Below, in pieces: positions 8,374 to 31,081 of a DNA stretch of 64,000 bases. The DNA is from Candidatus Omnitrophota bacterium (GTDB taxonomy: Bacteria > Omnitrophota > Gorgyraeia > B26-G9). Numbering within the stretch: position 1 is the first letter of the stretch; the number at the start of each line of letters is the position of its first letter. The position numbers and the translations under genes were made by a program. The DNA lies in NCBI GenBank assembly GCA_043814605.1, contig JBDRJV010000028.1, positions 92,350 through 156,349 on the forward strand, read 5' to 3'. The notes beneath the pieces were generated by a model. That model was given only the letters and a program-made list of their open reading frames with translations, did no database searches and was not told where the DNA came from.

Positions 8374-8742
8374 ATGAAAAAAATAGTTATGTTTTTATTT
8401 TTCTTATCAATTACATCAGTAAGCTTTGCACATCCGCCGAGCAATGTGAAAATCAGCTATTCTTCGGAGCAAAGTATGTTGGCGGTTAATTTTACACATC
8501 TTACGAATAATGGTAAAAAACATTATATCCGTAAGATCAGCATTATCCGGAGCGATGTCAGTACTGAGGATACTTATTACGTGCGGCAGGAAGAAGTAAA
8601 AGATGTTTTTAAAACTATACCCATAAAATTAAACCCTAAGGAAATGATTAAATTAAAAATTTACTGTGAAAAGGGCGGGATGAGCGAGACCGCGTATACC
8701 GCGGCAGAGGGAAAAAGTCAAAATAAAAACAAAAAAGAATAG
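8374..8742 (+). CDS. Small secreted protein with signal peptide, hypothetical
   Basis: MKKIVMFLFFLSITSVSFA signal peptide; Lys-rich C-terminus; no recognisable domain. Confidence 0.5.
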   Translation: MKKIVMFLFFLSITSVSFAHPPSNVKISYSSEQSMLAVNFTHLTNNGKKHYIRKISIIRSDVSTEDTYYVRQEEVKDVFKTIPIKLNPKEMIKLKIYCEKGGMSETAYTAAEGKSQNKNKKE

Positions 8743-8751
8743 GGGGGTGCG

Positions 8752-9078
8752 ATGAAAGTAATAATTTTAACTGCTTTAATGATAGTCATATTTATTCCGG
8801 CTTATGTTAGAGCGGAAGAAGCGGATGATGTGACCTATCAAATGCAGGAGATGCAGGGGGTCCCGGGAAATGCCTTGCCGGCAGTTGAAGTGGGCAACAC
8901 AATCTGCCTGGTTAGCGGGGAAGAAGTTGATGAAATGGGAGAACCGGTGAAACATAACTATAACGGGAAAATTTATAGTTTCTGTTGCAGTGGATGTGTG
9001 GAAGAATTTAAAAAAGACCCGAAAAAATATATCAAAATCTTCGAAGATTCTATGATTTTAGAAAACACAGCAGAATAA
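8752..9078 (+). CDS. Secreted YHS/TRASH-domain metal-binding protein
   Basis: Signal peptide followed by a YHS-like KHNYNGKIYSFCCSGCVEEFKKDPKKY motif. Confidence 0.6.
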   Translation: MKVIILTALMIVIFIPAYVRAEEADDVTYQMQEMQGVPGNALPAVEVGNTICLVSGEEVDEMGEPVKHNYNGKIYSFCCSGCVEEFKKDPKKYIKIFEDSMILENTAE

Positions 9079-9217: not shown

Positions 9218-11230
9218 CTATATTGACTGTTCGATTCTCAGGGTGAGAAAATCCTTCTGGAATTTAGGGAAAATAGCATTAATAAAAAACTCGTGCATTT
9301 TTATATCATCAGCAGAGTAAGTCTGCGTAATTTCATTGATTTTTTGTACGAGCAGCAATATCCGTTGCTTTAAATCTTTTGTATTAAGAATTTTCTGGTA
9401 TATTTTAAAATCTGGGTATTTTTTGCATACCTCTAAAAGTTTAAAGTCGACAGTTTTTTTTATAGCATTTATTAAATAATCATACGCTTGTGGATTAAGT
9501 TTCGCTAAGGCATTATGTTTTAATGCTTCTCGAATAGTAATTGGCTTAGCCTGGCCAAAAATTTGCGGCTTATTTTTGTCGTAATCATCAATGCTTAAAA
9601 TATATATTACAGTATCAAAATCAATGAGTTTTTGTTGAGGCGCCAAAATACAAGGCAACCCATTATGATCTGTCCAAAATGTAACTTTATCAGTAGAAAG
9701 ATTCTTTTCCAAGTAATATATAAGGTTCTGTCCTGGCACGAGCGTTAAATGTAATTTAGTACCAGCCACAGGTTTGTTTTCTATGCGCAGATTAGGGCCC
9801 ATCTGCCATAAGGTTAGGATATCCCCGGGCTGGTTATTGTTTTTGCTTAAGTCTAAATATTCTAAAACAGATTTACTCTCAGGATCCAGGGGTTGTTTTT
9901 TATTATGCAAAACTGGTATTTTTTTATGAGTACTGCGCAAAGTTTGATTTTTTGAACCAAATATTTGTATAGGGAAAGATTGTTTTTCTTGATTTTCTTG
10001 ACTTTTAATATGTGAAATAATTAATTTTTTACCGGATACAATCACTTGTATTTCTACATTTTCCTGAGGGTTAAAGTTATTTGGCAAAATATGTTTTTTA
10101 CAGAAATTTACATAACGCTGTGTTTTATCCAATACCTGAACTTTGAGATATCTTACGCGGATTTGAGTGCTTTTTATTTTTAATGAGTCTAGCAGATTGA
10201 AAAGAGCAGAATAGGTCAAGAAGCTTTTTCCACTCTCGTTGCTTATAGTCAGAAATAAGTGCCATTGCCCATCTTCTGGATTGTAATATTCAATACGTAT
10301 AAAATCATCAAAAAATTTATTTTCTGTTTGCTGTTCTGCAGTTGAACTAAGCGGATAAAGCCGATAAGGGCTGCCGTTTTCTGTCCAGATTAACAGCAAA
10401 GAGTTTATAAAAGGACTAAAATATTTTTGCGCGGGAAATTTTGTTAAGTATCGAAACGCTTTTAAATCATTAGTTGGTATCCCGGCAATAAATCCGGTCC
10501 AGGCATTGTATTTTTCTTTTACCTCAAGCTGAGTATCATAAAGTATGCCTTGTTTTGTATAAAATTCAAAAGGTATTAAAAAATTTGGATCAGCTTTATC
10601 GTAATGATTGCGGCAAACCGCTCTTAAGATCGGAAAGTCTGAATTTGGATTTTGAGAAAAGAACATCCTGACTGGCTGGCTGCTCTGACCGGCATAACGT
10701 ATATAATATTTGCCCCATAATATAATATCTGTATTTTTTTTTGTTTTTTTACCCTCAATAATCAAAACCGGATGAGTTTTTAATAATTTATTTAGCGATA
10801 GCTTTAACTGCGTCATGTTTTTTTGTTTGTCGATGATATTTCCGTTTAAATCAAGGATTATAAAAAATCCTTGTTGAATCAGTTCTTTTCTTTGTCCAAT
10901 AGTCTGGGCTTTAAGCCAGGGGGTTTGAGTTAAGTCTTTATTATGCCAGGAATCAGCCATCACCGCGTTATAATTTAATTCCCAATCTTTCAGCGGGAAT
11001 TGAGAGCTGTTTTTTAATGTTACATAGCTGTTATTTACCCAGCTCTTTGGCAGAGCAAGAATAGAAAGGCTTATCTGCGGGGAAAGCATGTTTTGTTGTA
11101 TTTTTTCAACTCCGGCAATCACTGTAGATTGGGGCAGGCATATCAGACAAATAAAACTACAAAAAGCAAATAAGCAAAGCATTTTTATTATTCTGTTATT
11201 TGTAGCCATATTTTCCCCCTCAAAAAGCAT
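9218..11230 (-). CDS. Large secreted hypothetical protein (670 aa) with signal peptide
   Basis: N-terminal hydrophobic signal (MLCLFAFCSFICLICLP); no motif recognised. The likely true start is the internal Met of MATNN. Confidence 0.5.
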   Translation of the reverse strand: MLFEGENMATNNRIIKMLCLFAFCSFICLICLPQSTVIAGVEKIQQNMLSPQISLSILALPKSWVNNSYVTLKNSSQFPLKDWELNYNAVMADSWHNKDLTQTPWLKAQTIGQRKELIQQGFFIILDLNGNIIDKQKNMTQLKLSLNKLLKTHPVLIIEGKKTKKNTDIILWGKYYIRYAGQSSQPVRMFFSQNPNSDFPILRAVCRNHYDKADPNFLIPFEFYTKQGILYDTQLEVKEKYNAWTGFIAGIPTNDLKAFRYLTKFPAQKYFSPFINSLLLIWTENGSPYRLYPLSSTAEQQTENKFFDDFIRIEYYNPEDGQWHLFLTISNESGKSFLTYSALFNLLDSLKIKSTQIRVRYLKVQVLDKTQRYVNFCKKHILPNNFNPQENVEIQVIVSGKKLIISHIKSQENQEKQSFPIQIFGSKNQTLRSTHKKIPVLHNKKQPLDPESKSVLEYLDLSKNNNQPGDILTLWQMGPNLRIENKPVAGTKLHLTLVPGQNLIYYLEKNLSTDKVTFWTDHNGLPCILAPQQKLIDFDTVIYILSIDDYDKNKPQIFGQAKPITIREALKHNALAKLNPQAYDYLINAIKKTVDFKLLEVCKKYPDFKIYQKILNTKDLKQRILLLVQKINEITQTYSADDIKMHEFFINAIFPKFQKDFLTLRIEQSI

Positions 11231-12209: not shown

Positions 12210-15200
12210 ATGCATAATTCTCAAATTTTTCATAAAAAAATCATCCAAAGAATTTTTAGCGTGCTGATTATCAGCGTAATGCTTACCAGTAATATTGCCT
12301 GGGCTGCATTAGATAATCATAATGTTGATACTTTAGCTCCGGCCTTGAATTTAAAAACAGATATTTTTCAGCAAGGAGTTCAAAAGCTGATACAAGACTT
12401 ATCCTCGGATATAGCAGTTGTAACTGACCTCGAAAAAGTAAAAAACATATTATCTGATGATCCAAATTTAGCAAATAACCCCACAATAATAAAAATGCTT
12501 GCAGCTTATGAACAAGCACTTGAGTTTAATTCTCTGGCTATGCAGCAAGTAGCTTTGGCTGAGCAGATGCAAGCAATAGGCAATTTTAAAAGCAAGCAAG
12601 AATATATAGAAAGATTAAAAATGATAGAAAGTTATTTTCTTGATGCGATAAAAATGCTAGATTTGCATTTAAATAATATAGAGAAGGTAAGGGGGATTTT
12701 ACCAGAAGAAAAAAACCAGGTTTTATACGAGATTGCCAGGCTTGGAGCAGAAATATGCGCATCTTTAGCAGATTTTTATTCATTAAATACACACAAATCA
12801 AACCAGTTCTGGATGAAAGCAGAAAAAAACATGGCATTTGCTTTTTCTTTATCTAATATAAAAATTGATTTTTATGCATTAGTCAAAATGGCCACAATTT
12901 ATGGGAAGCTAAGTTTACAATCATCTCTTAAAACAAAAGAAAAAATTAATTTAGTTGATAAATCAATAGCTTTTTTTAAAAAAGCAGAAGAGCAAATACC
13001 TAATCTTGCTAAAATCAAAAAAACAGCTGCAGATATTGCGGATATGTATTCTACATTTTGTAACGTATTTCATGCGGCAGCCTTTTTTGCCGAAGCATTA
13101 CCAGATTATGATAAAGCGTTAAGATATTATGATCAAGCGGAAAAGTTAATCCCGCATTTTATTCAGGATAAATCATATTTAGCAATTATAAAAAAAATGC
13201 ATAAGGATTATTATAATTTAGTTTGGGATTATGCTTCAGCATTGCTTGAAAAAGCAGAAAAACTGAAACCAGAGGAACAAGAAGAACGCAAAAAAGCAAT
13301 AAAGGGATTTTTTCATATTACCAGCCGTATTGCTTTAAAATATTTATCGTATTGTTCAAAAAATGAATTAACAACAGAAGAAAGTATTGAGCCTTTATCT
13401 ATTATTGTGGGCTCGAATCTCGTAGTCGCAACCATTGAATTGGATACAATTAAAAATATAAGCAAAGCTAATCAAAGCTTAAGGCAGGCAGCAGATAACT
13501 TAACTAAAGTAAACCAGTTAAAGCTGTTTAATCCCTTCGACAGTTTTAATAAAGCCCGGTTATATATTCTTTTTATAACTCAACGGATTCAGATGCTTAA
13601 ACAACTGATTTTAAGTGGCGAAGTTTTTAAAAATAATTTTAAAATCACAGAGTATTTAGAACCGGAATTTTTTGGAGAATTTATTAGCCGTTATGAACAA
13701 GGGGAATATAAAGAATTGTTTAGAAAAATACATGCTGAGCAAAAAGATCCTCTTAATCTTGAAAAATTGAGCCAGCAAATATATCTCTATTCTATAATGA
13801 ATAGTAAAGTTTTAAAATTGTTGCAAGAATGTACAGATGCCACCACCAAGGACTTTCAAAGAATTTATGGGGATATTGAATATGAAAAAAAATATAAGGA
13901 GTTTAAACAATATAGATTTAAAGCAGCCATAACAGCTGCAGGGTTATATGTGGTTAACCAGCAATTTAAGCGGGCACAAAAATGTATTAATGTTGCAGTG
14001 CAGGATCAGGCACGATTTATTTCAACTGATTCTTTTCATGAAACAATATTGCCCCAGCTAATACTGGCTCAAGAAAATGGGTTAAATTTTTTAGTCCAAT
14101 TATTATCAAAAAAAGAGGTTAACGAGATTTTAGTTGAAAATTTTATTTCCCATAAGCATGATTTAACTCAAGAAATAATAACATTTTTTACACAAGTTTT
14201 AGATTCCCCGGAGTATAGTTTTTTGCTTAAACAAAACCACATTGTAAAGCTTATCAAAGAACTGGAATTACCGCTTAAAGTCCTTAATAAACAAAAACAA
14301 GATGCAATTCAATCCCCGCAAACAGACGAAATGTTAATTACTGCAGCCAAACAAGCAATAGAGGCATTAAACGGTAACGGCAACGGAAAAACAAAAAAGA
14401 AAAAACAGAAAAAAATAAAAGGTATTGATTTAAAAACAAGCCAAGGCCGCAGGGTTCAGAACGCCTTAACCGTAATTATTGAAAAAGTAGATAACACACC
14501 AAAAAAGAAAGAACAAATAATTACAAAACTAACTGATTATATGCAAACAGTAGTTAATGAGGCTTTAATCCTTAAACAGGCAAATAATATCAGGATGATT
14601 GCCGAGATTTTTGTTTTAACAGAAACAAATTATGGACTGGAGGTTTTGCGAGAATTGGGGCAAGCTGCCGGTACGCCGGCTATTGATTCATTAAGAGAAG
14701 AAATAAATCAATCCTGCAGACAACAGGAGATATATTTAAACAATATGGTTGAAGTTGAGTTAATCGCGCAAGATATAATTGCCCGCTTGGCTAAAATGGA
14801 TACCGCAGATGTCCAGGCGGATAATTTTATTAACGGTATTGAACAAGAATCCCAGAAGTTGCAAAATAAGTATTCTTTTGACAAAGCCAAAGGCAGCAAA
14901 TTAAAAGCTGATTATCAGGCTAAAATTACGCAGGCTTTAATAAGTGCGCGGCAAAGAGTAGAAACAGTAAAAGAAAATAAAATTAGTGTTTTTGAGAGAA
15001 AAGCAGACAGAATTGAAGGCAAATTAAAAGCAAAAATAGAAAAAATTATTAATAAAGAAAATCAGTCTAATTTTCAAAAATATTATTATTTAAAACAATG
15101 GTGGAAAACTTTAGAGTTGCCTTATGCAGACGAAGATATAAAAAATTCACCCAGATGCATACAAGCACAAGAAAAAATCAACTCAACAAAAACAGCAATA

Positions 15201-16094
15201 GATATACAGGTTAACGAAAAACTTTCTCAATTGGCAAAGATGTGTAAAGGAGGAGTTGTTTTTGGGTTATCTGATGATTTTAATACTTTGACTTTTGAAG
15301 TGGTTAAAAAGGTTCATGGACTATCCGAACTTTTTGCTCAGGAAGCAGAGATGCTAATCCCTCAGGCATTAGAATCAAATCCGCAGGTTAATATTATTGC
15401 CTTAACCCCAACCTATGTGGGATTTATTGAACCGACGATAAATAAATGGCAGGAGAAATTAACACAGGCGCGAAAAAAGCAACAAGAAGTTAATGATTTT
15501 ATTAACAAATGCAGTAAAAAAGAAGAATTTCTTAAAGCTGGTTTTAAAAAGATTGTTAATGAGAATAAAAATAGATTCCATAAAATAGAATTGCTTAACA
15601 ATTTCTTCCCTGCACAAAGATCATTCATCCCGCATTTAGATGAAGATATTAACGCTGATGAATACCCGGAAATTATTAAAGCCGTAGATAGTTTGGATAG
15701 CACTTATGATAATCTCTTAAAACAAAAAGATAATTTATCAATTATTTGTTTTGGCAAGCTCAGGATAAAGTTATCTTATGATCCAGACGAAGGGGGATTG
15801 CTGCCAGAGTTTAGTTATGTTAATCCCCAGGATAGGGCGATTAATATTATTCCCGAACAGATAGCGGCAATTCTTGATGATTTACTTGAATTCAACCCAG
15901 ACGTAGATGCTTTTTCAGTAGGAGCAGGCATATCCGGAGAAGAAGAATGGGTTATTGATCTTGCGGATATTTTTGATCGAGAAAAAGAAAAGTTTGATCA
16001 AGCACGCAAAAAGCAGCAAGTAATTCACACAAAAGTTTCTCCAGATACACAATTAACTAATCAATGCAATGTTTTTATCCAATATGCAATTTAA
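12210..16094 (+). CDS. Giant (1294 aa) membrane-anchored alpha-helical/coiled-coil protein, unknown function, 30 nt downstream of the HD-GYP gene
   Basis: N-terminal TM/signal (IIQRIFSVLIISVMLTSNIAWA); K/E/Q-rich helical repeats; poly-Lys patch KKKKQKKIKG. Shares an 'aaaagaaagaaaat' RBS-region motif with the upstream gene. Confidence 0.45.
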   Translation: MHNSQIFHKKIIQRIFSVLIISVMLTSNIAWAALDNHNVDTLAPALNLKTDIFQQGVQKLIQDLSSDIAVVTDLEKVKNILSDDPNLANNPTIIKMLAAYEQALEFNSLAMQQVALAEQMQAIGNFKSKQEYIERLKMIESYFLDAIKMLDLHLNNIEKVRGILPEEKNQVLYEIARLGAEICASLADFYSLNTHKSNQFWMKAEKNMAFAFSLSNIKIDFYALVKMATIYGKLSLQSSLKTKEKINLVDKSIAFFKKAEEQIPNLAKIKKTAADIADMYSTFCNVFHAAAFFAEALPDYDKALRYYDQAEKLIPHFIQDKSYLAIIKKMHKDYYNLVWDYASALLEKAEKLKPEEQEERKKAIKGFFHITSRIALKYLSYCSKNELTTEESIEPLSIIVGSNLVVATIELDTIKNISKANQSLRQAADNLTKVNQLKLFNPFDSFNKARLYILFITQRIQMLKQLILSGEVFKNNFKITEYLEPEFFGEFISRYEQGEYKELFRKIHAEQKDPLNLEKLSQQIYLYSIMNSKVLKLLQECTDATTKDFQRIYGDIEYEKKYKEFKQYRFKAAITAAGLYVVNQQFKRAQKCINVAVQDQARFISTDSFHETILPQLILAQENGLNFLVQLLSKKEVNEILVENFISHKHDLTQEIITFFTQVLDSPEYSFLLKQNHIVKLIKELELPLKVLNKQKQDAIQSPQTDEMLITAAKQAIEALNGNGNGKTKKKKQKKIKGIDLKTSQGRRVQNALTVIIEKVDNTPKKKEQIITKLTDYMQTVVNEALILKQANNIRMIAEIFVLTETNYGLEVLRELGQAAGTPAIDSLREEINQSCRQQEIYLNNMVEVELIAQDIIARLAKMDTADVQADNFINGIEQESQKLQNKYSFDKAKGSKLKADYQAKITQALISARQRVETVKENKISVFERKADRIEGKLKAKIEKIINKENQSNFQKYYYLKQWWKTLELPYADEDIKNSPRCIQAQEKINSTKTAIDIQVNEKLSQLAKMCKGGVVFGLSDDFNTLTFEVVKKVHGLSELFAQEAEMLIPQALESNPQVNIIALTPTYVGFIEPTINKWQEKLTQARKKQQEVNDFINKCSKKEEFLKAGFKKIVNENKNRFHKIELLNNFFPAQRSFIPHLDEDINADEYPEIIKAVDSLDSTYDNLLKQKDNLSIICFGKLRIKLSYDPDEGGLLPEFSYVNPQDRAINIIPEQIAAILDDLLEFNPDVDAFSVGAGISGEEEWVIDLADIFDREKEKFDQARKKQQVIHTKVSPDTQLTNQCNVFIQYAI

Positions 16095-16211: not shown

Positions 16212-16757
16212 ATGAAAAAATTTAATCCACGCAAACAGCATAAATTAAAAGATTATAATTATTCGCGAACAGGGTATTATTATATTACAATATGTACCTA
16301 TAATCGCAGGGAGATTTTTGGCAGCATTCAAAATAATTATATGATTTTAAATGATTACGGTAATATTGCAAGTAAAACATAGGATAAAATTCCCGAGCAT
16401 TTTGCAGATATTGAATTAGATGAATATGTGATAATGCCTAATCATATTCATGGGATAGTCAATATTAAAAATCCTGTAGGGGACGGGCATGCCCGTCCCT
16501 ATTATAAAAACAATAAATTATCAATAATTATTGGTTCATTTAAATCAGCAGTTTCCAAAAAGATAAACATAATTTATGATGGTTTGTTTAAATGGCAACG
16601 ATCGTATTACGATAATGTAATTAGAACAACAAATTCATTACATAAAATAAGGCAATATATTAAAGAAAATCCATCGATGTGGGCAATGGATGAAAATAAT
16701 ATTGTAAATTATCAAGTAAGGGACAAGGCATGCCTTGTCCCTACAGGAACAGAATAA
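16212..16757 (+). pseudogene. tnpA: IS200/RAYT-like Y1 (HuH) tyrosine transposase interrupted by one in-frame TAG (16380-16382)
   Basis: Single frame reads MKKFNPRKQHKLKDYNYSRTGYYYITICTYNRREIFG...ASKT*DKIPEHFADIELDEYVIMPNHIHGIV...WQRSYYDNVIR (HuH HIHGIV plus catalytic SYYD Tyr). TAG is a real stop elsewhere in the window (e.g. MscS, MBL genes), so this is a nonsense mutation or sequencing error. Confidence 0.75.
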
Positions 16758-16825
16758 ATATTAAAAGACTTCTCGCCCTGAAAACAGGGTTCGAAGTTCT
16801 CAAAATTTGTTTCACAAATTTCGCG

Positions 16826-16915
16826 GGAGAGGTGCCGGAGCGGTTTAACGGGCATGCCTGGAGAGCATGTGTAGTCGCAAGGCTACCCAGGGTTCGAATC
16901 CCTGCCTCTCCGCCA
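16826..16915 (+). tRNA. tRNA-Ser (anticodon GGA), type II with long variable arm, CCA encoded
   Basis: Acceptor ggagagg/cctctcc; 3-bp D-stem ccg/cgg; anticodon stem catgc/gcatg with loop cuGGAga; long variable arm; T-arm caggg-ttcgaat-ccctg; discriminator G plus CCA. Confidence 0.85.
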
Positions 16916-17485
16916 AAAATAAAATCCCCTTTTCAGGGGTTTTTATTTCATAGAGGGAAACGAAGTTTTTACCTATGGGCGCTCGTTCCGCCGATGGCGG
17001 GAGCTCGCTGTCACTCCTTTCCATAATGTTGAATTCTTAGTCAAAAAAGATGGGGAGTATTATCCACTTTTTATTTAAAAATCTTTGCCCATCATAGTAA
17101 TTCCTTTAAAATCAATAAGTTAAGTTAAAACAGTTGACAAAGGAAGATTTAGAATGTATACTTAGTAATAGGATTTACAAAGTTTTTATTAACATTTGGA
17201 CAGTTAAATTGAAAGGTGCAAGATAAAGAGACAGGGAAAAAGAAAAAGGAAATTATATTATTTTTGATTACTGAAAAGTAATTATTAAAATTTGTTATTA
17301 GTAGCCCCTATCTCCCAATTGAATACCCTTCAATTATTAAATATCCGAAAAGGCAAACCCTAAGCAATTAGGGGACCCCGGCGATAATTATTCCGGGTCC
17401 CGCCAAAGGCGGGAGCAAAGCTACGGGTCTTTTATCCAAAGATTGCCGAGCATACCGATAACGCGCAGATTAAAAATTGGACAAG

Positions 17486-17615: not shown

Positions 17616-20600
17616 ATGAAGAAATTGTTTATAGTTTTATTTGTTTTAAGTATGTTTTCTTTTTTATATTGTATCATTTTTACGAATAATGTGTTTGCTG
17701 AAGAGATTAGAATACCAATTGAGTTCCCTGAACCAATACTTACCCCTGCAAGTAATGGTTATTGGCATATTGAGATGAATGGCATGCGTAGTATTGCCAA
17801 TCCTGGAGAGCCTGTTTTACCGGTAAAAGGGGTAAAGGCACTTATACCTTATAATAACGAAATAAAATCATATCATGTTGAATTAGGCCGGAGGATTGAA
17901 CAGTTTGGTTCTTATAAGATTGAACCTGGCCAAAAAGAGTATCCGTTAAGTTATGAAGGAAAGATAGACTACACCCAGCCTAAGAAAGAAATTTATAAAA
18001 GTGCTGGTGTTTATCCTGCAAAGCGAGCATCTGATAAATTTAACAAACAGCGCTTACATGGATATGAGATTGCGGTTATAAATCTGCATCCTGTGGAATA
18101 TACTCCGATTTCTGGAAAGATTGCTTATTATGATTCAATGACTTTAGTGATAAAAACTCAGAAAAAGTCTAGCACAGCAGCGCCGTTTATTAATCGCCAC
18201 AGCCCTGGAAAAGAAAGGAAATGCCAGGTAAAGAATTTGCCAAGGCATAGAAAAAAATTATTAAGTCTGATTGACAATCCTCAAACTCTAGATACCTATA
18301 ATAGCGCAGTTGATACACAAGATAATAGCGTGATTCAGCAAGAAAATTCTGGTATAGCCGACGAACAAGCAGCAGCGGCGTTTGGTATTGTGCCTTCCGG
18401 GGATTATCGATATGTGATTATTACTGCTGCGGCATTTGAAAATGTTTTTCAAGCGCTTGTTAATCATAAAATTCTCAAAGGCATAATGGCAACGATAGTA
18501 ACTACAGAATGGATATATGCTAATTATGATGGGACTCGTCCTGATGGGGGAATTGATAATGCTACCAAAATCCGGAATTTTATCATTGACGCCTATGAGA
18601 ACTGGAATACAGAATATGTACTCTTAGCTGGCGATGGCGATGGGGCGAATTTGGGAGGTGAAAGTGAAGATAGTATTATCCCTGCAAGATGCCTCCGTAG
18701 CGGCGGGGCAACTATTGCCGCGGATTTGTATTATGCTTGTTTAGATGGTAGTTTTGATAATGATCAGGATGGTGAATATGGCGAAGAAAATGATGGAATA
18801 GATGGAGAGGAAGTTGATCTTGTTGCAGAGGTGTATGTGGGCCGCGCACCAGTTGACTCAATATCTGAGGCGGAAAATTTTGTAAATAAAACTATTCAAT
18901 ACGATGAGATAGGGGGCTCTTATCTGCAGCAATGTTATATGTTAGGAGAATATTTGTGGGTTAAAACATGGGGTGCGGATTATATGGAGGAAATCCGGCT
19001 TGGCTCGGATAATTACGGCTATTCTACAATGGGGTTTATTGAGAATGAATTTTTTAATGTCAAAACGCACTATGATAAAGATAACCCTCCTGTTGGCTGT
19101 CATGGGCAGGAATTAGTGGATATTATTAATAATGAAGTTCATATATTAAATCATGTCGGGCACTGTAATAATTTCTTTCTAGCAAAACTTTATGTGCCGG
19201 ATAAGAATATCTTTGAATCTGAGGAACAAAAAAATAAGTATGCGGATGTTAACTTAATTACCAATGAGAACCCCTTTTTTATGAATAGCCAGGGGTGTTA
19301 TCCGGGAGCATTTGATAATAAGGATGCTTATACCTTAAATTATTTGCCGGATGATTGCATTGCTGAGCATTTATTGGGGGAAGAGAAAGGCGCGTTTGCC
19401 CTCATAGTTAATTCAAGATATGGATGGGGAATTTTAAATTCGACAAACGGTCCTTCACAATATTACCAGCGGCAATTCTGGGATGCGGTATTTAGGGAAG
19501 GAATATTAGAATTAGGCAGAGCTAATCAGGATTCCAAAGAAGATAATATAGAGTTTATTGATTATGGCATGAATCGTTATTGTTATTTTACAGTTAATCT
19601 CTTAGGGGATCCGCAGCTGCAGCTTCATGTAAGTATCCCTGATATTGATTTTTATCTGAGCGCTCCGTTGCTTAATAGTTGCGTAAAGGGAACTATTGAT
19701 TTGATCGGAACTGTTGATGGAAATAAGCTGGATAGCTATGAATTATACTATTGGGAGGAAAAAGATGCGGAGAATAAAATTTTATTAGGAAAGTCATTTT
19801 CTCCAGTCAACGACGGACGTTTAGGGGTCTGGGATACTACAGAATGCGTGGATGGAAATTATGTGCTTGGAGTTCGGGTGATAACAAATAGCATAGACAG
19901 CAACGCCTATTGGCTTGAACGTGCAATTAAAGTTGATAATGTAAATGAGCCGCCTGTTTTTAAACAAACATCAAGCAAAGGTGCCATTGCGAATGATGTT
20001 CTTCATCCTGAAGAACCAGAACGCGATGTTTATCTTTTGTTTTCCGTAAGTGCTGAAGATCCTGATGATCCGAACACACAAGCAGGAACACTGGTGTATT
20101 CTGCGGAAAATATTCCTCGTAGAGCAAATTTTAATGCAGATACAGGAAGTTTTTCATGGGCTCCTTTAATTTCAGATATAGGACGGCATACAGTAACATT
20201 GAAAGTCCAAGATAGTGAACATTTGATAACTCAGAATATAGATATTTATGTGTTTGAAGCTGATAGTACCAAAATAACTGGTACTAATTATTGGGATCAT
20301 TGTGATATTGATGAATATCAGGAGCCAGTGATAGGTAAAACACTTACTTATAAAGTATGGCAGAAGGACCTGGGGAGCATTGGTGCGGATAATATTATTT
20401 TTAGTAATATGTCGGAAATTGTGAAATATAATATAAATGAACCGCAAGAACCGACACGGATTAGTGATAATGGCAGGGATACGCGATTCTTAGCAGTTTC
20501 GCAGAATCGAATAGTGTGGAATACTCGGGACTACTCGAATTATGAGAAAATATTATCAGATATATTAATACATGATTTGGAAAGTGGACAGGAGAGACAA

Positions 20601-21947
20601 ATTACCAATATGCCTGCTGAACGCAGATATATTAATATAGAAGGAAATTATATAGTCTGGCAGGACAAAAGAAATGGCAACTGGGATATCTACATGTATA
20701 ATATCGCAGATGGGGCAGAGGTGCAAGTTACTGATGAGCCTTGCGATCAGAAATATCCAGGCATCTCTGGTAACCGGATAGTTTGGCAGCAAATAAGAGA
20801 AAAAGATGGTTACTGGGATATCTATATGTATGATATTACAACTGGCGTAAAAACACAGATTACTGATTCCCCTTTTAATCAGCAACATCCCTGTATTTCA
20901 GGCAACCGCATAGTTTGGTCGGAAAAGATATTTTTTAACTGGCATGAAGATTCGGATATTTTTATGTATGATATAGCAAGCGGCCAGACAACGCAGATTA
21001 CTAACGATCCTGCAGCACAAGATTATCCAATTATCAAAGGAGATATGATAACCTGGCTTGACCACCGAAGTGATGACCTTTATGGGGATCTGATGTGGGA
21101 TATTTATATGTATAATTTAAATTATAATATCGAAGTTAAAGTTAATAATAATATGTTGTTCGGGGATTATGGTGGTTCTACTAATCCGACGAATATTCCT
21201 GTAATCTATGATGGCCGGATTCTCTGGGCAGGAGGTGATTATTATAATGATGGTATTTATGTATTTAACATGATATTTAATACACCGCCAGAAATTTTTC
21301 CTGTTTTTGCTCAAGAAGTTTTTGAGGAAAAACCAGTTGCTTTCTATGTACGAGCTACAGATAATGAAGGAGACGAATTAATATATAACGCGCAATTAGC
21401 TGTTTCCGGAGAGTTGGTTTCAACATTAGGCGCGAGTTTTACTACAGTTATTCTGGGAGATTTTAATCAGGATGGCCGAGTGGATATGCAGGATTGGTTG
21501 ATGTTCAGTTCAGCTTGGGGCGCAGTAAAAGGAGATGAAAATTATAATGCTCAAGTAGACTTAGACAGTGACGGAAAAATTAACATACTTGATCAGCAGA
21601 TATTTAGCACAAACTGGGGGACTACAGATTATTCTGGCACTAAGGCTGGATTTTTTGAATGGGTGCCTGCGCAGCATCAAGGGCCTGATGATTACGAATT
21701 GGAATTTATAGCTACAGATAATCATAATGCTGCAGGGAAGGGGTTAATTACAATTACAGTGTATATCCAGGGAGATTTTAATAAAGACGGCCGGGTAGAT
21801 ATGCAAGATTGGTTGATTTTTAGTTCAGCTTGGGGCGCAGTAAAAGGAGATGAGAATTATCTTCCGGATGTTGATCTAAATAATGACGGAAAAATTGATA
21901 TGCTTGATCAGCAAATATTTAGTAGTAATTGGGGGAGAACAGACTAA
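17616..21947 (+). CDS. Secreted peptidase C25 (gingipain-like cysteine protease) with beta-propeller repeats and two C-terminal dockerin domains
   Basis: Signal peptide. C25 signature region YVIITAAAFENVF..IRNFIIDAYENWNTEYVLLAGDGDG..IP plus His/Cys candidates (HVGHCNNF, NSQGCYPGAFD). About 5 repeats of 'GNRIVW..WDIYMYD..G..TQITD'. Two dockerin-type Ca-binding repeats (GDFNQDGRVDMQDW..DLDSDGKINILD and the GDFNKDGRVDMQDW paralog). Confidence 0.7.
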   Translation: MKKLFIVLFVLSMFSFLYCIIFTNNVFAEEIRIPIEFPEPILTPASNGYWHIEMNGMRSIANPGEPVLPVKGVKALIPYNNEIKSYHVELGRRIEQFGSYKIEPGQKEYPLSYEGKIDYTQPKKEIYKSAGVYPAKRASDKFNKQRLHGYEIAVINLHPVEYTPISGKIAYYDSMTLVIKTQKKSSTAAPFINRHSPGKERKCQVKNLPRHRKKLLSLIDNPQTLDTYNSAVDTQDNSVIQQENSGIADEQAAAAFGIVPSGDYRYVIITAAAFENVFQALVNHKILKGIMATIVTTEWIYANYDGTRPDGGIDNATKIRNFIIDAYENWNTEYVLLAGDGDGANLGGESEDSIIPARCLRSGGATIAADLYYACLDGSFDNDQDGEYGEENDGIDGEEVDLVAEVYVGRAPVDSISEAENFVNKTIQYDEIGGSYLQQCYMLGEYLWVKTWGADYMEEIRLGSDNYGYSTMGFIENEFFNVKTHYDKDNPPVGCHGQELVDIINNEVHILNHVGHCNNFFLAKLYVPDKNIFESEEQKNKYADVNLITNENPFFMNSQGCYPGAFDNKDAYTLNYLPDDCIAEHLLGEEKGAFALIVNSRYGWGILNSTNGPSQYYQRQFWDAVFREGILELGRANQDSKEDNIEFIDYGMNRYCYFTVNLLGDPQLQLHVSIPDIDFYLSAPLLNSCVKGTIDLIGTVDGNKLDSYELYYWEEKDAENKILLGKSFSPVNDGRLGVWDTTECVDGNYVLGVRVITNSIDSNAYWLERAIKVDNVNEPPVFKQTSSKGAIANDVLHPEEPERDVYLLFSVSAEDPDDPNTQAGTLVYSAENIPRRANFNADTGSFSWAPLISDIGRHTVTLKVQDSEHLITQNIDIYVFEADSTKITGTNYWDHCDIDEYQEPVIGKTLTYKVWQKDLGSIGADNIIFSNMSEIVKYNINEPQEPTRISDNGRDTRFLAVSQNRIVWNTRDYSNYEKILSDILIHDLESGQERQITNMPAERRYINIEGNYIVWQDKRNGNWDIYMYNIADGAEVQVTDEPCDQKYPGISGNRIVWQQIREKDGYWDIYMYDITTGVKTQITDSPFNQQHPCISGNRIVWSEKIFFNWHEDSDIFMYDIASGQTTQITNDPAAQDYPIIKGDMITWLDHRSDDLYGDLMWDIYMYNLNYNIEVKVNNNMLFGDYGGSTNPTNIPVIYDGRILWAGGDYYNDGIYVFNMIFNTPPEIFPVFAQEVFEEKPVAFYVRATDNEGDELIYNAQLAVSGELVSTLGASFTTVILGDFNQDGRVDMQDWLMFSSAWGAVKGDENYNAQVDLDSDGKINILDQQIFSTNWGTTDYSGTKAGFFEWVPAQHQGPDDYELEFIATDNHNAAGKGLITITVYIQGDFNKDGRVDMQDWLIFSSAWGAVKGDENYLPDVDLNNDGKIDMLDQQIFSSNWGRTD

Positions 21948-22062
21948 ATACTATATTGGAATGAGAATTTTAGTTAATAAACATAGCTAGAAATAAGAAT
22001 CCCCAGTCAAAAAGGCTGGGGATTTTCTCTGTTTAAAATTTACAAAGAAGATAGAAATAAAC

Positions 22063-22092
22063 TTGACATACCCTGGGGGGGTATGGTATACT
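22063..22092 (+). promoter_or_regulatory. CsoR promoter with embedded CsoR-type operator palindrome ATACCCTGGGGGGGTAT (22068-22084)
   Basis: ttgaca (22063-68), tatact (22087-92). The operator is near-identical to the B. subtilis copZA CsoR site (ATACCC-N-GGGGGTAT). Confidence 0.7.
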
Positions 22093-22112
22093 ATATTATG
22101 AAAGGAGGGCAA

Positions 22113-22385
22113 ATGAATAAATATCCTGACCATCAAGAAAACATAGTTTCATTTAAGCGGATAGAAGGCCAAATCAGGGGTATCCAAAAAATGGTTGAAG
22201 AACGCAAATACTGCGTGGATATCCTTACCCAGATACAGGCAGTAAAAGCAGCTTTGGCAAGGGTAGAAAGAAATATCTTACAGAAACATATTGAAAATTG
22301 TGTGGTAAATGCTGTTAAAGGAAAATCCGCAGTTGAAAAAAATAAAAAACTTGAAGAAATTTTTCAATTGCTCAAAAAGATGTGA
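22113..22385 (+). CDS. csoR: CsoR/RcnR-family copper-sensing transcriptional repressor
   Basis: RIEGQIRGIQKMVEE..YCVDILTQI..H..C pattern; start at Met-11 of the track ORF after RBS aaaggaggg. Confidence 0.8.
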   Translation: MNKYPDHQENIVSFKRIEGQIRGIQKMVEERKYCVDILTQIQAVKAALARVERNILQKHIENCVVNAVKGKSAVEKNKKLEEIFQLLKKM

Positions 22386-22399
22386 GAAAGGAGGAGAAA

Positions 22400-22525
22400 A
22401 TGAAATATTTGATCATCGCGCTAATAATTGCTGTTATTGCATTTTCAGGGATATCTATGTCAAATGCAAAAACAGAAGGCTGCAAATGTTCTCCATGTGA
22501 ATGTTCACCCTGTGAATGCCGTTAA
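22400..22525 (+). CDS. Unannotated 41-aa peptide: N-terminal TM helix plus C-terminal CxC-rich metal-binding tail (MKYLIIALIIAVIAFSGISMSNAKTEGCKCSPCECSPCECR)
   Basis: Perfect RBS aaaggagga 8 nt upstream, 14 nt after csoR stop, followed by a strong terminator. Not in the ORF track (<60 aa). Confidence 0.6.
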   Translation: MKYLIIALIIAVIAFSGISMSNAKTEGCKCSPCECSPCECR

Positions 22526-22546
22526 TTAAATGGAAACGAAAGTTTA

Positions 22547-22590
22547 GCGAAGAGGGAATATCATAAGCATTATCCCTCTTCGTTTTTTTG
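22547..22590 (+). terminator. Rho-independent terminator of the csoR-peptide operon
   Basis: gcgaagagggaata-loop-tatccctcttcg plus T7. Confidence 0.8.
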
Positions 22591-29809: not shown

Positions 29810-31081
29810 ATGATGATAAAAAATATTACGTTGAAACAGGCAATTTTTTTCTGGGTAATATTGCTTTTTTCTTTTTACACTGGCGCGGCCGCACAAACTT
29901 TCATATCCCAGGATCAAAAAAATCAGGTTATTATTGATCAGATAAAAAACTATTATAACCAAATCAATACTTTTTCTGTTAATTTTTCCCAGGTTAATTC
30001 TGCCCCCGGATCGGAAATAAAATTAAAAGGAACATTATACTACCAAGCTCCGGATAAATTAAAATCGGAAGTAATTATTGAAGGGATGGCGCAGGAGGAT
30101 AAAATAAAAACTTTAACAATTTTTGACGGACAATTTTTATGGCAGCAGCAAAGTTTAATAGATGAAAAAAATATTAATGTCCTGAAATCAACAATAGATA
30201 AAAATACTTTACAGGGTCAGGAATTATTAAGACAGTTTGATTTTAAAGAACAGCTGGATTATTTGTTCAGCAAATATAATGTTATTAATTTTGAAAAAGA
30301 AACTAGGGAAGGAAAAGCGGTTAACGTGTTAAATTTAGAAATAAAAGAAGACAATCGCAATAAATTGGAATTATTAATTAAAGCAAAAGGCTATAAATCG
30401 GTTTCAGATATTATGCCTGAGCAAATTTTACTTTATGCTGACGGAGAACAAGGCCGGTGTTTAAAAATTGACACATTTAATACAAAACATAAACTGGTTT
30501 CAAGTATCAGCTATACTGATACAAAAATTAATCCGGGATTACCAAAGGATATATTTATTTATGTTGTGCCGGAGGGAGCGGATGTTATTGACATGACGCA
30601 GACTTTGAATAATCCTAAGGATACAGGACAAAACACAGTAAATAAAATCATCGAAGAAAACTGCCCGGGATTTTCATTATTAGATTTAAACGGGAATACT
30701 TATGAGTTTAAAAATTATCAGGATAAAATTATAATTATTATTTTTTGGGCAACCGGGGCGTCTCTTTGCGAAAAAGAGCTGCCTTTAATACAGGAATTAT
30801 TTGAAAATTATAAGCAGGATAATCAGGTAGCAATATTTACAGTCAGCCATGAGCCAAAAGATGATTTGCTGAATTTTGTTTTTCAAAATAAGTATACTTT
30901 TCATGTTTTATTAGATGCAGAACATAAGTTAGCTCAGGATTTCAGGATACATTCTGTCCCGAGTTTATTTGTGATTGATAAAAAAGGGAAAGTAAATAAA
31001 GCCTATTTTGGTTTCTACGATGATATTATTGACAAGCTGGATGCAGATATTGAAGAATTAAAACAAATAGAGGAATTTTAA
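29810..31081 (+). CDS. Secreted protein with LolA-like N-domain and thioredoxin-like (redoxin/TlpA-like) C-domain
   Basis: Signal peptide; C-terminal FSLLDLNGNTYEFKNYQDKIIIIIFWATGASLCEKELP..HSVPSLFVIDKKGKV (SxxC variant). Confidence 0.5.
   Translation: MMIKNITLKQAIFFWVILLFSFYTGAAAQTFISQDQKNQVIIDQIKNYYNQINTFSVNFSQVNSAPGSEIKLKGTLYYQAPDKLKSEVIIEGMAQEDKIKTLTIFDGQFLWQQQSLIDEKNINVLKSTIDKNTLQGQELLRQFDFKEQLDYLFSKYNVINFEKETREGKAVNVLNLEIKEDNRNKLELLIKAKGYKSVSDIMPEQILLYADGEQGRCLKIDTFNTKHKLVSSISYTDTKINPGLPKDIFIYVVPEGADVIDMTQTLNNPKDTGQNTVNKIIEENCPGFSLLDLNGNTYEFKNYQDKIIIIIFWATGASLCEKELPLIQELFENYKQDNQVAIFTVSHEPKDDLLNFVFQNKYTFHVLLDAEHKLAQDFRIHSVPSLFVIDKKGKVNKAYFGFYDDIIDKLDADIEELKQIEEF

What the first reader, a model, noticed from the sequence alone, without database searches (positions are those of the whole stretch)
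22063..22590. CsoR regulon in miniature: textbook operator plus an unannotated 41-aa membrane-anchored CxC peptide
The promoter carries ATACCCTGGGGGGGTAT between -35 and -10, almost identical to the B. subtilis copZA CsoR operator. Immediately after csoR is a short ORF missed by the ORF track (<60 aa). It has an excellent RBS and encodes a TM helix followed by CKCSPCECSPCEC, a metallothionein-like Cu(I)-binding tail. No CopA or CopZ is adjacent. A membrane-tethered Cys-rich peptide as the sole CsoR-regulated effector would be an unusual minimal copper-buffering system. Two YHS-domain/secreted small proteins at 8374-9078 may be functionally related.
Basis: partly seen in the sequence, partly recalled or inferred. 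Interest (0 to 1): 0.5.

Follow-up and report, generated by a model that had tools for sequence, protein, structure and literature searches.

The report
CsoR operon with exported cysteine peptide
A copper-sensing repressor gene in an uncultured Omnitrophota bacterium is always co-transcribed with a tiny, previously uncharacterised gene for an exported six-cysteine peptide, which most likely soaks up toxic copper outside the cytoplasm in place of the usual copper pump.

Summary
Window 22063-22590 carries a near-consensus sigma-70 promoter. A CsoR-type operator (TAC-N9-GTA) fills its spacer. Then come a 90-aa CsoR with the Cu(I) ligand set (C34/H59/C63), a 41-aa ORF with its own GGAGG, and a terminator.

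The same cassette occurs in 14 distinct relatives (CsoR 50-89% identical) whose flanking genes are all different. The peptide ORF is under purifying selection, and its six Cys are invariant. All five homologues found by peptide similarity alone lie directly after a csoR gene. None of these loci has CopA or CopZ nearby, whereas about 60% of more distant csoR loci do.

It has MK, a 13-14-residue hydrophobic core, a conserved Gly, and a small-x-Ala site in 14 of 14 sequences. The product would be a 17-19-residue exported (CxCxx)2CxC peptide. One relative has expanded it to 20 Cys through a 15-nt tandem repeat.

The best reading is a copper-induced, extracytoplasmic mini-metallothionein. Copper binding, export and the "sole effector" claim are untested. 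The weak Pfam hit to FeoB-associated peptides fails every membership test. I found no description of this peptide family.

The parts
21996..22033 (+). Intrinsic terminator of the upstream 1443-aa gene. It insulates the csoR unit from read-through.
   Evidence: Terminator scan: 13-bp stem with 6 GC pairs, followed by a T-run.
22063..22092 (+). Sigma-70-type promoter: TTGACA (22063-22068), 18-nt spacer, TG-extended TATACT (22087-22092).
   Evidence: 11 of 12 consensus matches. The same hexamers are conserved in 13 relatives while the flanking DNA is unrelated.
22068..22084 (.). CsoR operator ATACCCTGGGGGGGTAT (TAC-N9-GTA with a G-tract). It fills the promoter spacer.
   Evidence: Unique in the window. 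13 of 13 modules have TAC-N9-GTA at the same place, and there is one site per locus across 83 kb. It fits the TAC-X9-GTA rule for CsoR sites (PMC3902906) and differs by one base from the S. aureus copX CsoR box (PMC5947656).
22104..22108 (+). Ribosome-binding site (GGAGG) of csoR.
   Evidence: Read directly from the sequence. Conserved in relatives.
22113..22385 (+). csoR: a 90-aa CsoR-family repressor with Y33-C34, H59 and C63 (x-C-H-C).
   Evidence: PF02583 at 9.5e-27. Best solved-structure relatives are Cu(I)-sensing CsoRs 4M1P (4e-19) and 4ADZ, with the Cys/His/Cys aligned. The ligands are invariant in 13 relatives.
22390..22394 (+). Ribosome-binding site (GGAGG) of the peptide gene, 5 nt before the ATG, inside a 14-nt intergenic gap.
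   Evidence: Read directly from the sequence. GGAGG/GGAGA is present in every relative's 14-25-nt gap.
22400..22468 (+). Predicted Sec signal peptide (residues 1-23, MKYLIIALIIAVIAFSGISMSNA), with SPase I cleavage predicted after Ala23.
   Evidence: MK n-region, 13-14-residue hydrophobic core, Gly near -7 in most variants, A/V/S at -3 and Ala at -1 in 14 of 14 variants. Similar to other exported proteins of this window. No dedicated predictor was available, so this is an inference.
22469..22525 (+). Mature peptide KTEGCKCSPCECSPCECR (18 aa, 6 Cys, C-x-C-x-x-C-x-C-x-x-C-x-C) plus stop codon.
   Evidence: The six Cys are invariant in the nine 40-43-aa variants whose coding DNA was aligned, while the TGT/TGC codons flip; five of the six are invariant once the two longer variants are added. 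pN is 0.10-0.45 against pS 0.39-1.0, giving dN/dS 0.13-0.56. The motif occurs nowhere else in the window or loci. In L166 it is expanded to 20 Cys by a 15-nt tandem array.
22546..22590 (+). Intrinsic terminator that closes the two-gene operon.
   Evidence: 12-bp stem plus U7, -22.1 kcal/mol, z = -4.5, no shuffle folded as well. Equivalent hairpin and T-run in relatives.

Best explanation
This is a self-contained, autoregulated two-gene copper-response module.

1. With little copper, apo-CsoR binds the TAC-N9-GTA operator in the spacer between -35 and -10 and blocks RNA polymerase.
2. Cu(I) binds C34/H59/C63 and releases CsoR. One mRNA then yields more CsoR plus the 41-aa pre-peptide.
3. The pre-peptide is exported by Sec and cleaved after Ala23. 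This releases an 18-residue peptide with six cysteine thiolates into the periplasm of this diderm anaerobe.
4. There the peptide sequesters Cu(I) as a polynuclear thiolate cluster; six Cys would fit a Cu4S6-type cluster. In effect it is an exported mini-metallothionein.
5. In this clade the peptide occupies the position that copA/copZ, or a Cus-type outer-membrane factor, occupies next to csoR in other lineages.

Shown here: the anatomy, conservation, purifying selection, strict csoR linkage and absence of an adjacent pump. Inferred: copper as the inducer, export, cleavage and Cu(I) binding.
For: - Anatomy: promoter, operator, two ribosome-binding sites and two terminators are all present.
- CsoR identity: PF02583. 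C-H-C plus Tyr are aligned to the solved Cu(I) sensors 4M1P and 4ADZ and are invariant in relatives. Published criteria for Cu(I) sensors are x-C-H-C with Tyr35/Glu81, and CstR lacks the His (PMC8643695).
- Operator: it matches the TAC-X9-GTA rule (PMC3902906) and the S. aureus CsoR boxes (PMC5947656).
- Conservation: 14 distinct modules, with CsoR 50-89% identical and unrelated flanking genes.
- Independent linkage test: five homologues found by peptide similarity alone are 5 of 5 directly downstream of a PF02583 gene.
- Coding: dN/dS is 0.13-0.56 with synonymous sites saturated and the Cys invariant.
- Export: signal-peptide features are conserved in 14 of 14, and the charge distribution puts the N-terminus inside and the tail outside.
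- Cell type: a TonB-dependent receptor indicates an outer membrane, and pyruvate:ferredoxin oxidoreductase indicates an anaerobe.
- Partners elsewhere: sister PVC/Omnitrophota csoR genes, several with this promoter/operator design, are followed by envelope proteins. These are an outer-membrane efflux protein, a porin-like protein, an exported YHS protein, or exported Cys/His-rich proteins. About 60% of more distant csoR loci have a P1B-ATPase adjacent, against 0 in this clade.
- Precedents: RicR controls the metallothionein MymT (PMC3944814). CsoR controls the surface lipoprotein CopL (PMC10233261).
Against: - No experiment or expression data exist for any member.
- No signal-peptide predictor could be run. 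The hydrophobic stretch (15-24 uncharged residues, depending on the variant) could in some members act as an uncleaved anchor.
- Cu(I) binding is inferred only from Cys content and from the regulator.
- All-thiolate peptides also bind Zn, Cd, Hg and Ni.
- The fate of a copper-loaded periplasmic peptide is unexplained.
- Only 64 kb of the genome was visible, so CopA or Cus genes and further CsoR boxes may exist elsewhere.
- The position of the second-shell Glu is only approximately aligned.
Confidence: 0.6

Rival explanations
1. Same operon and same copper logic, but the N-terminal segment is an uncleaved signal anchor. The Cys-rich tail then stays tethered to the outer face of the inner membrane.
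For: The uncharged stretch reaches 19-24 residues in some variants (window, L161, L081, L167). Tethering would stop the loss of a 2-kDa peptide. CupA and CopL are precedents for membrane-attached extracytoplasmic Cu binders (PMC7558416; PMC10233261).
Against: Ala at -1 and A/V/S at -3 are invariant in 14 of 14, and a Gly lies near -7 in most, while the hydrophobic residues themselves vary freely. An anchor would not need such a pattern. In several variants the strictly hydrophobic core is only 13-16 residues before a polar N/H/Q.
Confidence: 0.2
2. The regulator senses something other than copper, such as reactive sulfur species or another thiophilic metal (Ni, Co, Zn, Cd). The exported thiol-rich peptide would then buffer that stress.
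For: The CsoR family includes persulfide, Ni/Co and formaldehyde sensors, and weaker hits to InrS, RcnR and FrmR were found. Omnitrophota live in anoxic, often sulfidic habitats. The outer-membrane efflux partners in sister clades are not metal-specific. A His in a (P/A)DH motif is invariant near the N-terminus.
Against: The Y-position His that CstR lacks is present and invariant, as is the Tyr. The best structural and NCBIfam relatives are Cu(I) sensors. The same (P/A)DH motif occurs in CopA/CopZ-adjacent CsoRs of Bacteriovoracales, so it is compatible with copper sensing. The His does not align with the W position of InrS or RcnR (with numbering recalled from memory).
Confidence: 0.1
3. [quoted passage not shown] It would act in iron uptake, with a cytoplasmic tail.
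For: Pfam hit at 26.7 bits, E = 6.6e-6. Four of nine relatives hit at E < 0.01. In L167 a dtxR-feoA unit lies about 150 nt downstream.
Against: The score is below the gathering cutoff of 27. No feoB was found next to the peptide gene in any locus that extends downstream. In L167 a terminator and a separate promoter region lie between the peptide gene and dtxR-feoA. The Cys spacing CxCx2CxCx2CxC differs from the family's Cx3-5Cx2-3Cx6-8C (PMC8749426). Linkage to csoR is strict, 14 of 14. The resemblance is what a hydrophobic N-terminus plus a Cys-rich tail would give by composition alone.
Confidence: 0.04
4. The ORF encodes a secreted disulfide-rich or post-translationally modified peptide (a RiPP, bacteriocin or signal), not a metal binder.
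For: It has a short leader plus a Cys-rich core, like SCIFF/ranthipeptide or lanthipeptide precursors (my own knowledge). In L162 a B12-binding radical SAM gene and a CPBP protease gene lie upstream of csoR.
Against: No maturase, transporter or immunity gene is conserved; the flanking genes differ in every locus. The leader is a standard Sec signal peptide, not a RiPP recognition leader. The only conserved partner is a metal sensor.
Confidence: 0.04
5. The ORF is not translated, and the region is just the csoR 3' UTR.
For: Several gene callers skipped it. No expression data exist.
Against: The reading frame is open in 14 of 14. The RBS is conserved, dN/dS is well below 1 with synonymous sites saturated, the Cys are invariant despite codon changes, and a 15-nt in-frame repeat expansion has occurred.
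Confidence: 0.02

Closest known systems
CsoR-copZA systems (B. subtilis, S. aureus, S. lividans, Geobacillus CsoR; PDB 4M1P, 4ADZ)
   Same: PF02583 repressor, x-C-H-C Cu(I) ligand set with the Tyr, a G-tract TAC-N9-GTA operator overlapping the promoter, and autoregulation.
   Different: The co-transcribed partner is not a P1B-ATPase or CopZ but a 41-aa exported Cys peptide. No pump lies within 3-5 kb in any of the loci long enough to show it.
RicR regulon of Mycobacterium tuberculosis (ricR, mymT, lpqS, socAB, mmcO)
   Same: A CsoR-family Cu(I) repressor controls a small, originally unannotated Cys-rich copper-binding protein (MymT), envelope proteins and small ORFs (PMC3944814; PMC7558416). 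NCBIfam's best hit for this CsoR is the RicR model, at 79 bits, far below its cutoff of 175.
   Different: MymT is cytoplasmic, has 53 aa, is unrelated in sequence and is transcribed from its own promoter. Here the peptide carries a signal peptide, is 17-19 aa when mature, and is fused into the repressor's own operon.
CopL (S. aureus copXL/copBL), a CsoR-controlled surface lipoprotein
   Same: It is a CsoR-regulated extracytoplasmic protein proposed to bind copper outside the cell and limit its entry (PMC10233261; PMC5947656).
   Different: CopL is a much larger lipoprotein encoded next to a copper ATPase. This peptide has no lipobox, is unrelated in sequence and has no pump partner.
Csp1, the Tat-exported copper storage protein of methanotrophs
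   Same: An exported, Cys-rich Cu(I) store or buffer in the periplasm of Gram-negative bacteria (PMC7558416).
   Different: Csp1 is a pre-folded four-helix bundle of over 100 aa that forms tetramers and is exported by Tat. This is an 18-residue, presumably unstructured, Sec-exported peptide.
[quoted passage not shown]
   Same: About 40-50 aa, with a hydrophobic N-terminus and a Cys-rich C-terminus. Weak HMM similarity.
   Different: The score is below threshold, the Cys spacing differs, the genomic partner is csoR rather than feoB, and the predicted topology is opposite. The PF12669 topology is from my own recollection.

Membership tests
Cu(I)-sensing CsoR (CsoR/RcnR superfamily, PF02583) | PF02583 domain above the Pfam gathering score | tested here: met
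   93.7 bits against a cutoff of 22.8, E = 9.5e-27.
Cu(I)-sensing CsoR (CsoR/RcnR superfamily, PF02583) | x-C-H-C first-shell ligand set (Cys, His, Cys at the X, Y, Z positions) | tested here: met
   C34, H59 and C63 align with the Cys/His/Cys of 4M1P and 4ADZ and are invariant in 13 relatives. The criterion is taken from PMC8643695.
Cu(I)-sensing CsoR (CsoR/RcnR superfamily, PF02583) | Second-shell Tyr before the first Cys, and a Glu on helix 3 | tested here: inconclusive
   Y33 is present and invariant. E81/E82 align with the VEE of S. lividans CsoR, but with Lys against the Geobacillus Glu in the ungapped alignment.
Cu(I)-sensing CsoR (CsoR/RcnR superfamily, PF02583) | G-tract pseudopalindromic operator (TAC-X9-GTA) at a regulated promoter | tested here: met
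   TACCCTGGGGGGGTA lies in the promoter spacer and is conserved in 13 of 13 modules. The rule is taken from PMC3902906.
Cu(I)-sensing CsoR (CsoR/RcnR superfamily, PF02583) | CopA and/or CopZ in the immediate gene neighbourhood (true of the vast majority, per PMC8643695) | tested here: not met
   No DKTGT/CPC ATPase or GMxCxxC protein was found in any locus of the clade that extends 3-5 kb from csoR. About 60% of csoR loci at 41-57% identity have one.
Cu(I)-sensing CsoR (CsoR/RcnR superfamily, PF02583) | Cu(I)-dependent release from DNA | not testable with these tools
   This needs EMSA or anisotropy with the recombinant protein.
[quoted passage not shown] | HMM score at or above the gathering cutoff | tested here: not met
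   26.7 bits against a cutoff of 27. Only 4 of 9 relatives reach E < 0.01.
[quoted passage not shown] | Encoded next to, or fused to, feoB | tested here: not met
   No feoB was found next to the peptide gene in any locus that extends downstream. In L167 a dtxR-feoA unit follows only after a terminator.
[quoted passage not shown] | Cys motif Cx3-5Cx2-3Cx6-8C | tested here: not met
   The motif here is CxCx2CxCx2CxC. The family motif is taken from PMC8749426.
Bacterial metallothioneins (SmtA/BmtA, MymT) | Small, very Cys-rich, with CxC/CxxC motifs | tested here: met
   The mature peptide has 6 Cys in 18 residues (33%) and three CxC motifs. L166 has 20 Cys.
Bacterial metallothioneins (SmtA/BmtA, MymT) | Sequence homology to a known metallothionein family | tested here: not met
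   No metallothionein family appears in Pfam or NCBIfam scans at E <= 0.1-1. An exhaustive phmmer search found only 7 unnamed 40-43-aa relatives.
Bacterial metallothioneins (SmtA/BmtA, MymT) | Binds several metal ions in thiolate clusters | not testable with these tools
   This needs Cu(I) titration and ESI-MS of the synthetic peptide.
Sec/SPase I-exported proteins | Positive n-region, hydrophobic h-region of about 7-15 residues, c-region with small residues at -3 and -1 | tested here: met
   By inspection of 14 variants: MK/MR start, a 13-14-residue core, a Gly near -7 in most, A/V/S at -3 and Ala at -1 in all. No SignalP-type predictor was available.
Bacterial lipoproteins (CopL-like) | Lipobox [LVI][ASTVI][GAS]C at the cleavage site | tested here: not met
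   The residues before the first Cys are TEG, TDG, IDG, TDS, IDD and similar, with an acidic residue at -2 and no Leu at -3.
RiPP precursors (SCIFF/ranthipeptide-like) | A conserved adjacent maturase (radical SAM or similar) | tested here: not met
   Flanking genes differ in every locus. A radical SAM gene is near only in L162-164.

The most novel reading that the evidence does not exclude
These peptides are a previously undescribed family of Sec-exported mini-metallothioneins. They are 17-19 residues when mature, with a (CxCxx)n unit that can expand by 15-nt tandem duplication. Each would assemble a Cu(I)-thiolate cluster in the periplasm. They would be the dedicated output of an autonomous CsoR cassette that, in a clade of Omnitrophota/PVC bacteria, takes the place of the CopA/CopZ efflux arm next to csoR. 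If so, copper would be neutralised by stoichiometric sequestration outside the cytoplasm rather than by pumping.
Probability: 0.5. Interest if true: 0.65.

Novelty: new variant of a known kind. Interest (0 to 1): 0.55.

Why it matters
CsoR regulators are almost always paired with a copper-exporting ATPase and a chaperone. Here a whole clade of uncultured, small-celled anaerobes pairs csoR only with a gene so short that gene callers often miss it.

If the peptide is an exported Cu(I) sponge, three things follow:
- It would be the smallest bacterial metallothionein-like molecule known, and the first I know of to be Sec-exported.
- It would add a sequestration-only arm to bacterial copper defence.
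- It would provide a very compact, portable part (about 530 bp: sensor, operator and effector) that can be tested directly with a synthetic 18-mer and a reporter fusion.

The case also shows how conserved micro-ORFs downstream of regulators can be recovered from metagenomes through synteny.

Tried and rejected
- A word-indexed protein search with the 41-aa peptide found nothing. An alignment profile and an exhaustive phmmer search were needed.
- Exact-sequence look-ups of the window's peptide and CsoR failed, although an identical CsoR exists in NCBI (P0001). 'Unannotated in this MAG' therefore could not be checked.
I could not then scan those collections for the operator or for a back-translated peptide pattern.
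- The literal B. subtilis operator string was not found in any held paper.
- No paper holds the phrase 'periplasmic metallothionein', and the papers listed for Omnitrophota plus copper gave nothing relevant.
- The terminator scanner missed the operon's terminator because its loop is 15 nt. Folding confirmed it.
- PF12669 membership was considered and rejected.
- A lipoprotein reading was rejected because there is no lipobox.
- A RiPP reading was rejected because no maturase is conserved.
- The N-terminal (P/A)DH histidine was considered as a fourth ligand that would mark a Ni sensor. I rejected this because CopA-linked CsoRs share the motif.
- Structure prediction was not attempted, because an 18-residue metal-free Cys peptide would give no meaningful model.
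Full report
**What is in the window**

Positions 21996-22033 hold the terminator of the upstream 1443-aa gene. A near-consensus sigma-70 promoter follows: TTGACA at 22063-22068, an 18-nt spacer, and a TG-extended TATACT at 22087-22092, matching 11 of 12 consensus positions.

The spacer is filled by ATACCCTGGGGGGGTAT (22068-22084). This is the only match in the 64-kb window even with three mismatches allowed (expected 0.05). It is also the only TACC-N7-GGTA in the window.

The rest of the unit is:
- GGAGG at 22104-22108, then a 90-aa ORF at 22113-22385;
- a 14-nt gap containing GGAGG (22390-22394);
- a 41-aa ORF at 22400-22525, MKYLIIALIIAVIAFSGISMSNAKTEGCKCSPCECSPCECR;
- a hairpin plus U7 terminator at 22546-22590 (-22.1 kcal/mol, z = -4.5).

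**The regulator**

The 90-aa protein is a PF02583 member (93.7 bits). Its best solved relatives are the copper sensors Geobacillus CsoR (4M1P, 4e-19) and Streptomyces lividans CsoR (4ADZ). Y33-C34, H59 and C63 align to their Tyr-Cys, His and Cys.

The literature defines Cu(I)-sensing CsoRs by the x-C-H-C set plus a Tyr/Glu second shell. The persulfide sensor CstR lacks the His (PMC8643695). The operator fits the TAC-X9-GTA G-tract rule established for CsoR (PMC3902906). It differs by one base from the S. aureus copX CsoR box ATACCctggGTGGGTAT; that paper tested CsoR binding to the copA, copX and copL promoter fragments by EMSA (PMC5947656).

An invariant (P/A)DH motif near the N-terminus is not a sign of a nickel sensor. 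CopA/CopZ-linked CsoRs of Bacteriovoracales have the same motif.

**The organism**

An identical CsoR is recorded from a Candidatus Omnitrophota MAG (P0001). The window also encodes a TonB-dependent receptor, so the cell has an outer membrane and a periplasm. It encodes pyruvate:ferredoxin oxidoreductase, which points to an anaerobic lifestyle. No copper ATPase or Cus system was found among the window's large ORFs that I scanned or near csoR.

**Is the small ORF real?**

I fetched csoR loci from species-representative genomes and from metagenomes, plus contigs carrying close CsoR homologues. Every relative with CsoR at least 67% identical has, 14-25 nt after csoR and behind a GGAGG, an ORF of 40-72 aa with the same design.

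I then searched with the peptides themselves. A profile search found 7 proteins. An exhaustive phmmer search of 1.84 billion representatives also found 7 hits at E <= 0.001, all 40-43 aa and none with a functional name or Pfam domain. The five that were new (P0124, P0125, P0127, P0128, P0129) were each looked up, and all five lie directly downstream of a PF02583 gene. One of these has a CsoR only 50% identical to the window's.

That gives 14 distinct modules in all. The flanking genes differ in every one. The promoter hexamers and a TAC-N9-GTA operator, however, are present in all 13 modules whose upstream DNA is available. There is exactly one operator per locus across 83 kb.

Codon analysis of nine variants gave these results:
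- Synonymous sites are saturated (pS 0.39-1.0).
- pN is 0.10-0.45, and dN/dS is 0.13-0.56 wherever it can be computed.
- The six Cys columns are invariant while their codons switch between TGT and TGC.

The six-frame motif C.C..C.C..C.C occurs only in these ORFs across all fetched DNA, and never in 50 shuffles of the window. In L166 the tail has grown to 20 Cys through a 15-nt (five-codon) tandem array of 7.4 copies. This is a genuine protein-coding gene whose only constant companion is csoR.

**Signal peptide, not membrane anchor**

All 14 variants share the following:
- a start of MK or MR;
- a 13-14-residue hydrophobic core whose residues vary freely;
- in most variants a Gly about seven residues before a small-x-Ala triplet (SNA, VNA, VSA, VQA, ANA, AYA, VTA, AFA, VRA, VFA, STA);
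- immediately afterwards a polar or acidic stretch and the first Cys.

This is the n/h/c architecture and -3/-1 rule of SPase I substrates. It resembles other exported proteins of this window (...NNVFA|EE...SVSFA|HPP...AYVRA|EE). There is no lipobox. The positive N-terminus and the neutral-to-acidic tail put the tail outside the cytoplasm whether or not cleavage occurs. I could not run a dedicated predictor, so cleavage after Ala23 is a well-supported inference rather than a result. The predicted product is KTEGCKCSPCECSPCECR.

**What sits next to csoR elsewhere**

Among csoR loci at 41-57% identity, about 60% have a P1B-ATPase adjacent, often with a CopZ-like HMA protein. No locus of the peptide clade that extends far enough has one. 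[quoted passage not shown]

In other PVC/Omnitrophota relatives, several of which carry the same TTGACA-operator-TATACT design, csoR is followed by one of these:
- an outer-membrane efflux protein (PF02321, 1e-30 to 1e-47);
- a porin-like 335-aa protein;
- an exported YHS-domain protein;
- exported Cys/His-rich proteins of 120-140 aa.

The theme in this lineage is that CsoR drives defences located in the cell envelope. The exported peptide fits that theme.

**Mechanism proposed**

Apo-CsoR occludes the promoter spacer. Cu(I) binding at C34/H59/C63 releases it. The bicistronic mRNA then yields CsoR and the pre-peptide. Sec export and SPase I cleavage release a six-thiolate peptide that sequesters Cu(I) in the anoxic periplasm. 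Six Cys would suit a Cu4S6-type cluster, as described for other six-Cys Cu(I) sites; that part is my own knowledge and inference. The larger L166 and L003 variants would bind more.

The anatomy, conservation, selection and linkage are shown here. The inducer, export, cleavage and metal binding are inferred.

**Comparison with known systems**

- The regulator and operator are ordinary CsoR biology.
- RicR controlling the cytoplasmic metallothionein MymT and small ORFs is a precedent for a CsoR-family repressor driving a Cys-rich copper binder (PMC3944814; PMC7558416).
- CopL is a precedent for a CsoR-controlled extracytoplasmic copper-binding protein (PMC10233261).
- Csp1 is a precedent for an exported Cys-rich Cu(I) store (PMC7558416).
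- None of these is homologous to this peptide, and none is a Sec-exported peptide under 20 residues that is fused into the repressor's own operon.
[quoted passage not shown] It also fails on gene context and on Cys spacing.
- I found no paper describing such a peptide.

**The YHS side claim**

ORF 8752-9078 is an exported YHS-domain protein. It has no CsoR box upstream. A 41%-identical exported YHS protein directly follows csoR in L087. A copper role is therefore plausible, but regulation by this CsoR is not supported.

**Verdict**

The topology needs correcting: the peptide is exported and probably cleaved, not anchored. The 'sole effector' claim is untestable from 64 kb. I rate it a new variant of a known kind and moderately interesting, because it defines a conserved, experimentally tractable micro-protein family with a clear hypothesis.

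Noticed in passing
window 8374-9078: Two adjacent small exported proteins. ORF 8752-9078 has a YHS domain (1.9e-9) and is 41% identical to an exported YHS protein that lies directly downstream of csoR in L087. No CsoR box lies upstream in the window. ORF 8374-8742 has no family hit.
   Followed up: partly
L005, L006, L007, L015, L019, L086 (about 20-45 nt after csoR): In other PVC/Omnitrophota relatives, csoR (with the same promoter-embedded operator in some of them) is followed by a 420-440-aa protein. The three that I scanned (L005, L007, L019) are outer-membrane efflux proteins (PF02321), presumably the start of a Cus/Czc-type operon; the other three look similar by sequence.
   Followed up: partly
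L089 567-983; L094 440-808: Exported 122-138-aa Cys/His-rich proteins with no Pfam family lie directly downstream of csoR. They may be another uncharacterised class of envelope metal binder.
   Followed up: no
L004, L008, L085 (about 335-aa ORF after csoR): A conserved signal-peptide protein (FYKEL..GGYS..FEYFRKFSNDYGD) with only a weak porin-like hit (Porin_4, 8e-4) follows csoR.
   Followed up: no
L166 5396-5506: The peptide tail is a 15-nt tandem array (7.4 copies) encoding repeated CxCxP-like units, giving 20 Cys in 72 aa. This shows that the motif is a modular unit that can expand.
   Followed up: yes
L167 391-1243: In a marine (GOS) contig the csoR-peptide unit is followed, after a terminator, by a dtxR-like iron repressor and feoA. 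This is curious given the weak PF12669 (FeoB-associated) hit, but it is a separate transcription unit.
   Followed up: partly
window 17616-21947: A 1443-aa exported protein ends in three dockerin-like repeats (GDFNQDGRVDMQDWL.FSSAWG...D.D.DGKI..LDQQIFS.NWG). It lies immediately upstream of the csoR unit.
   Followed up: no
L165 1345-2724; L166 1-259: Genes for a CcdA/DsbD-type membrane thiol reductant (DsbD_TM) lie 2-5 kb from the module in two relatives, with a thioredoxin-like gene beside it in L165. They could keep exported thiols reduced, or this could be coincidence. The window has a membrane-anchored or exported AhpC/TSA-redoxin protein at 29810-31081.
   Followed up: no
window 16428-17026: Two short overlapping ORFs, the first with a weak IS200-like transposase hit (Y1_Tnp, 1e-3). 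This may be a degraded insertion sequence.
   Followed up: no
window 9218-11230 (-) and 12210-16094 (+): Large ORFs of 670 and 1294 aa with no Pfam family at the thresholds used.
   Followed up: no
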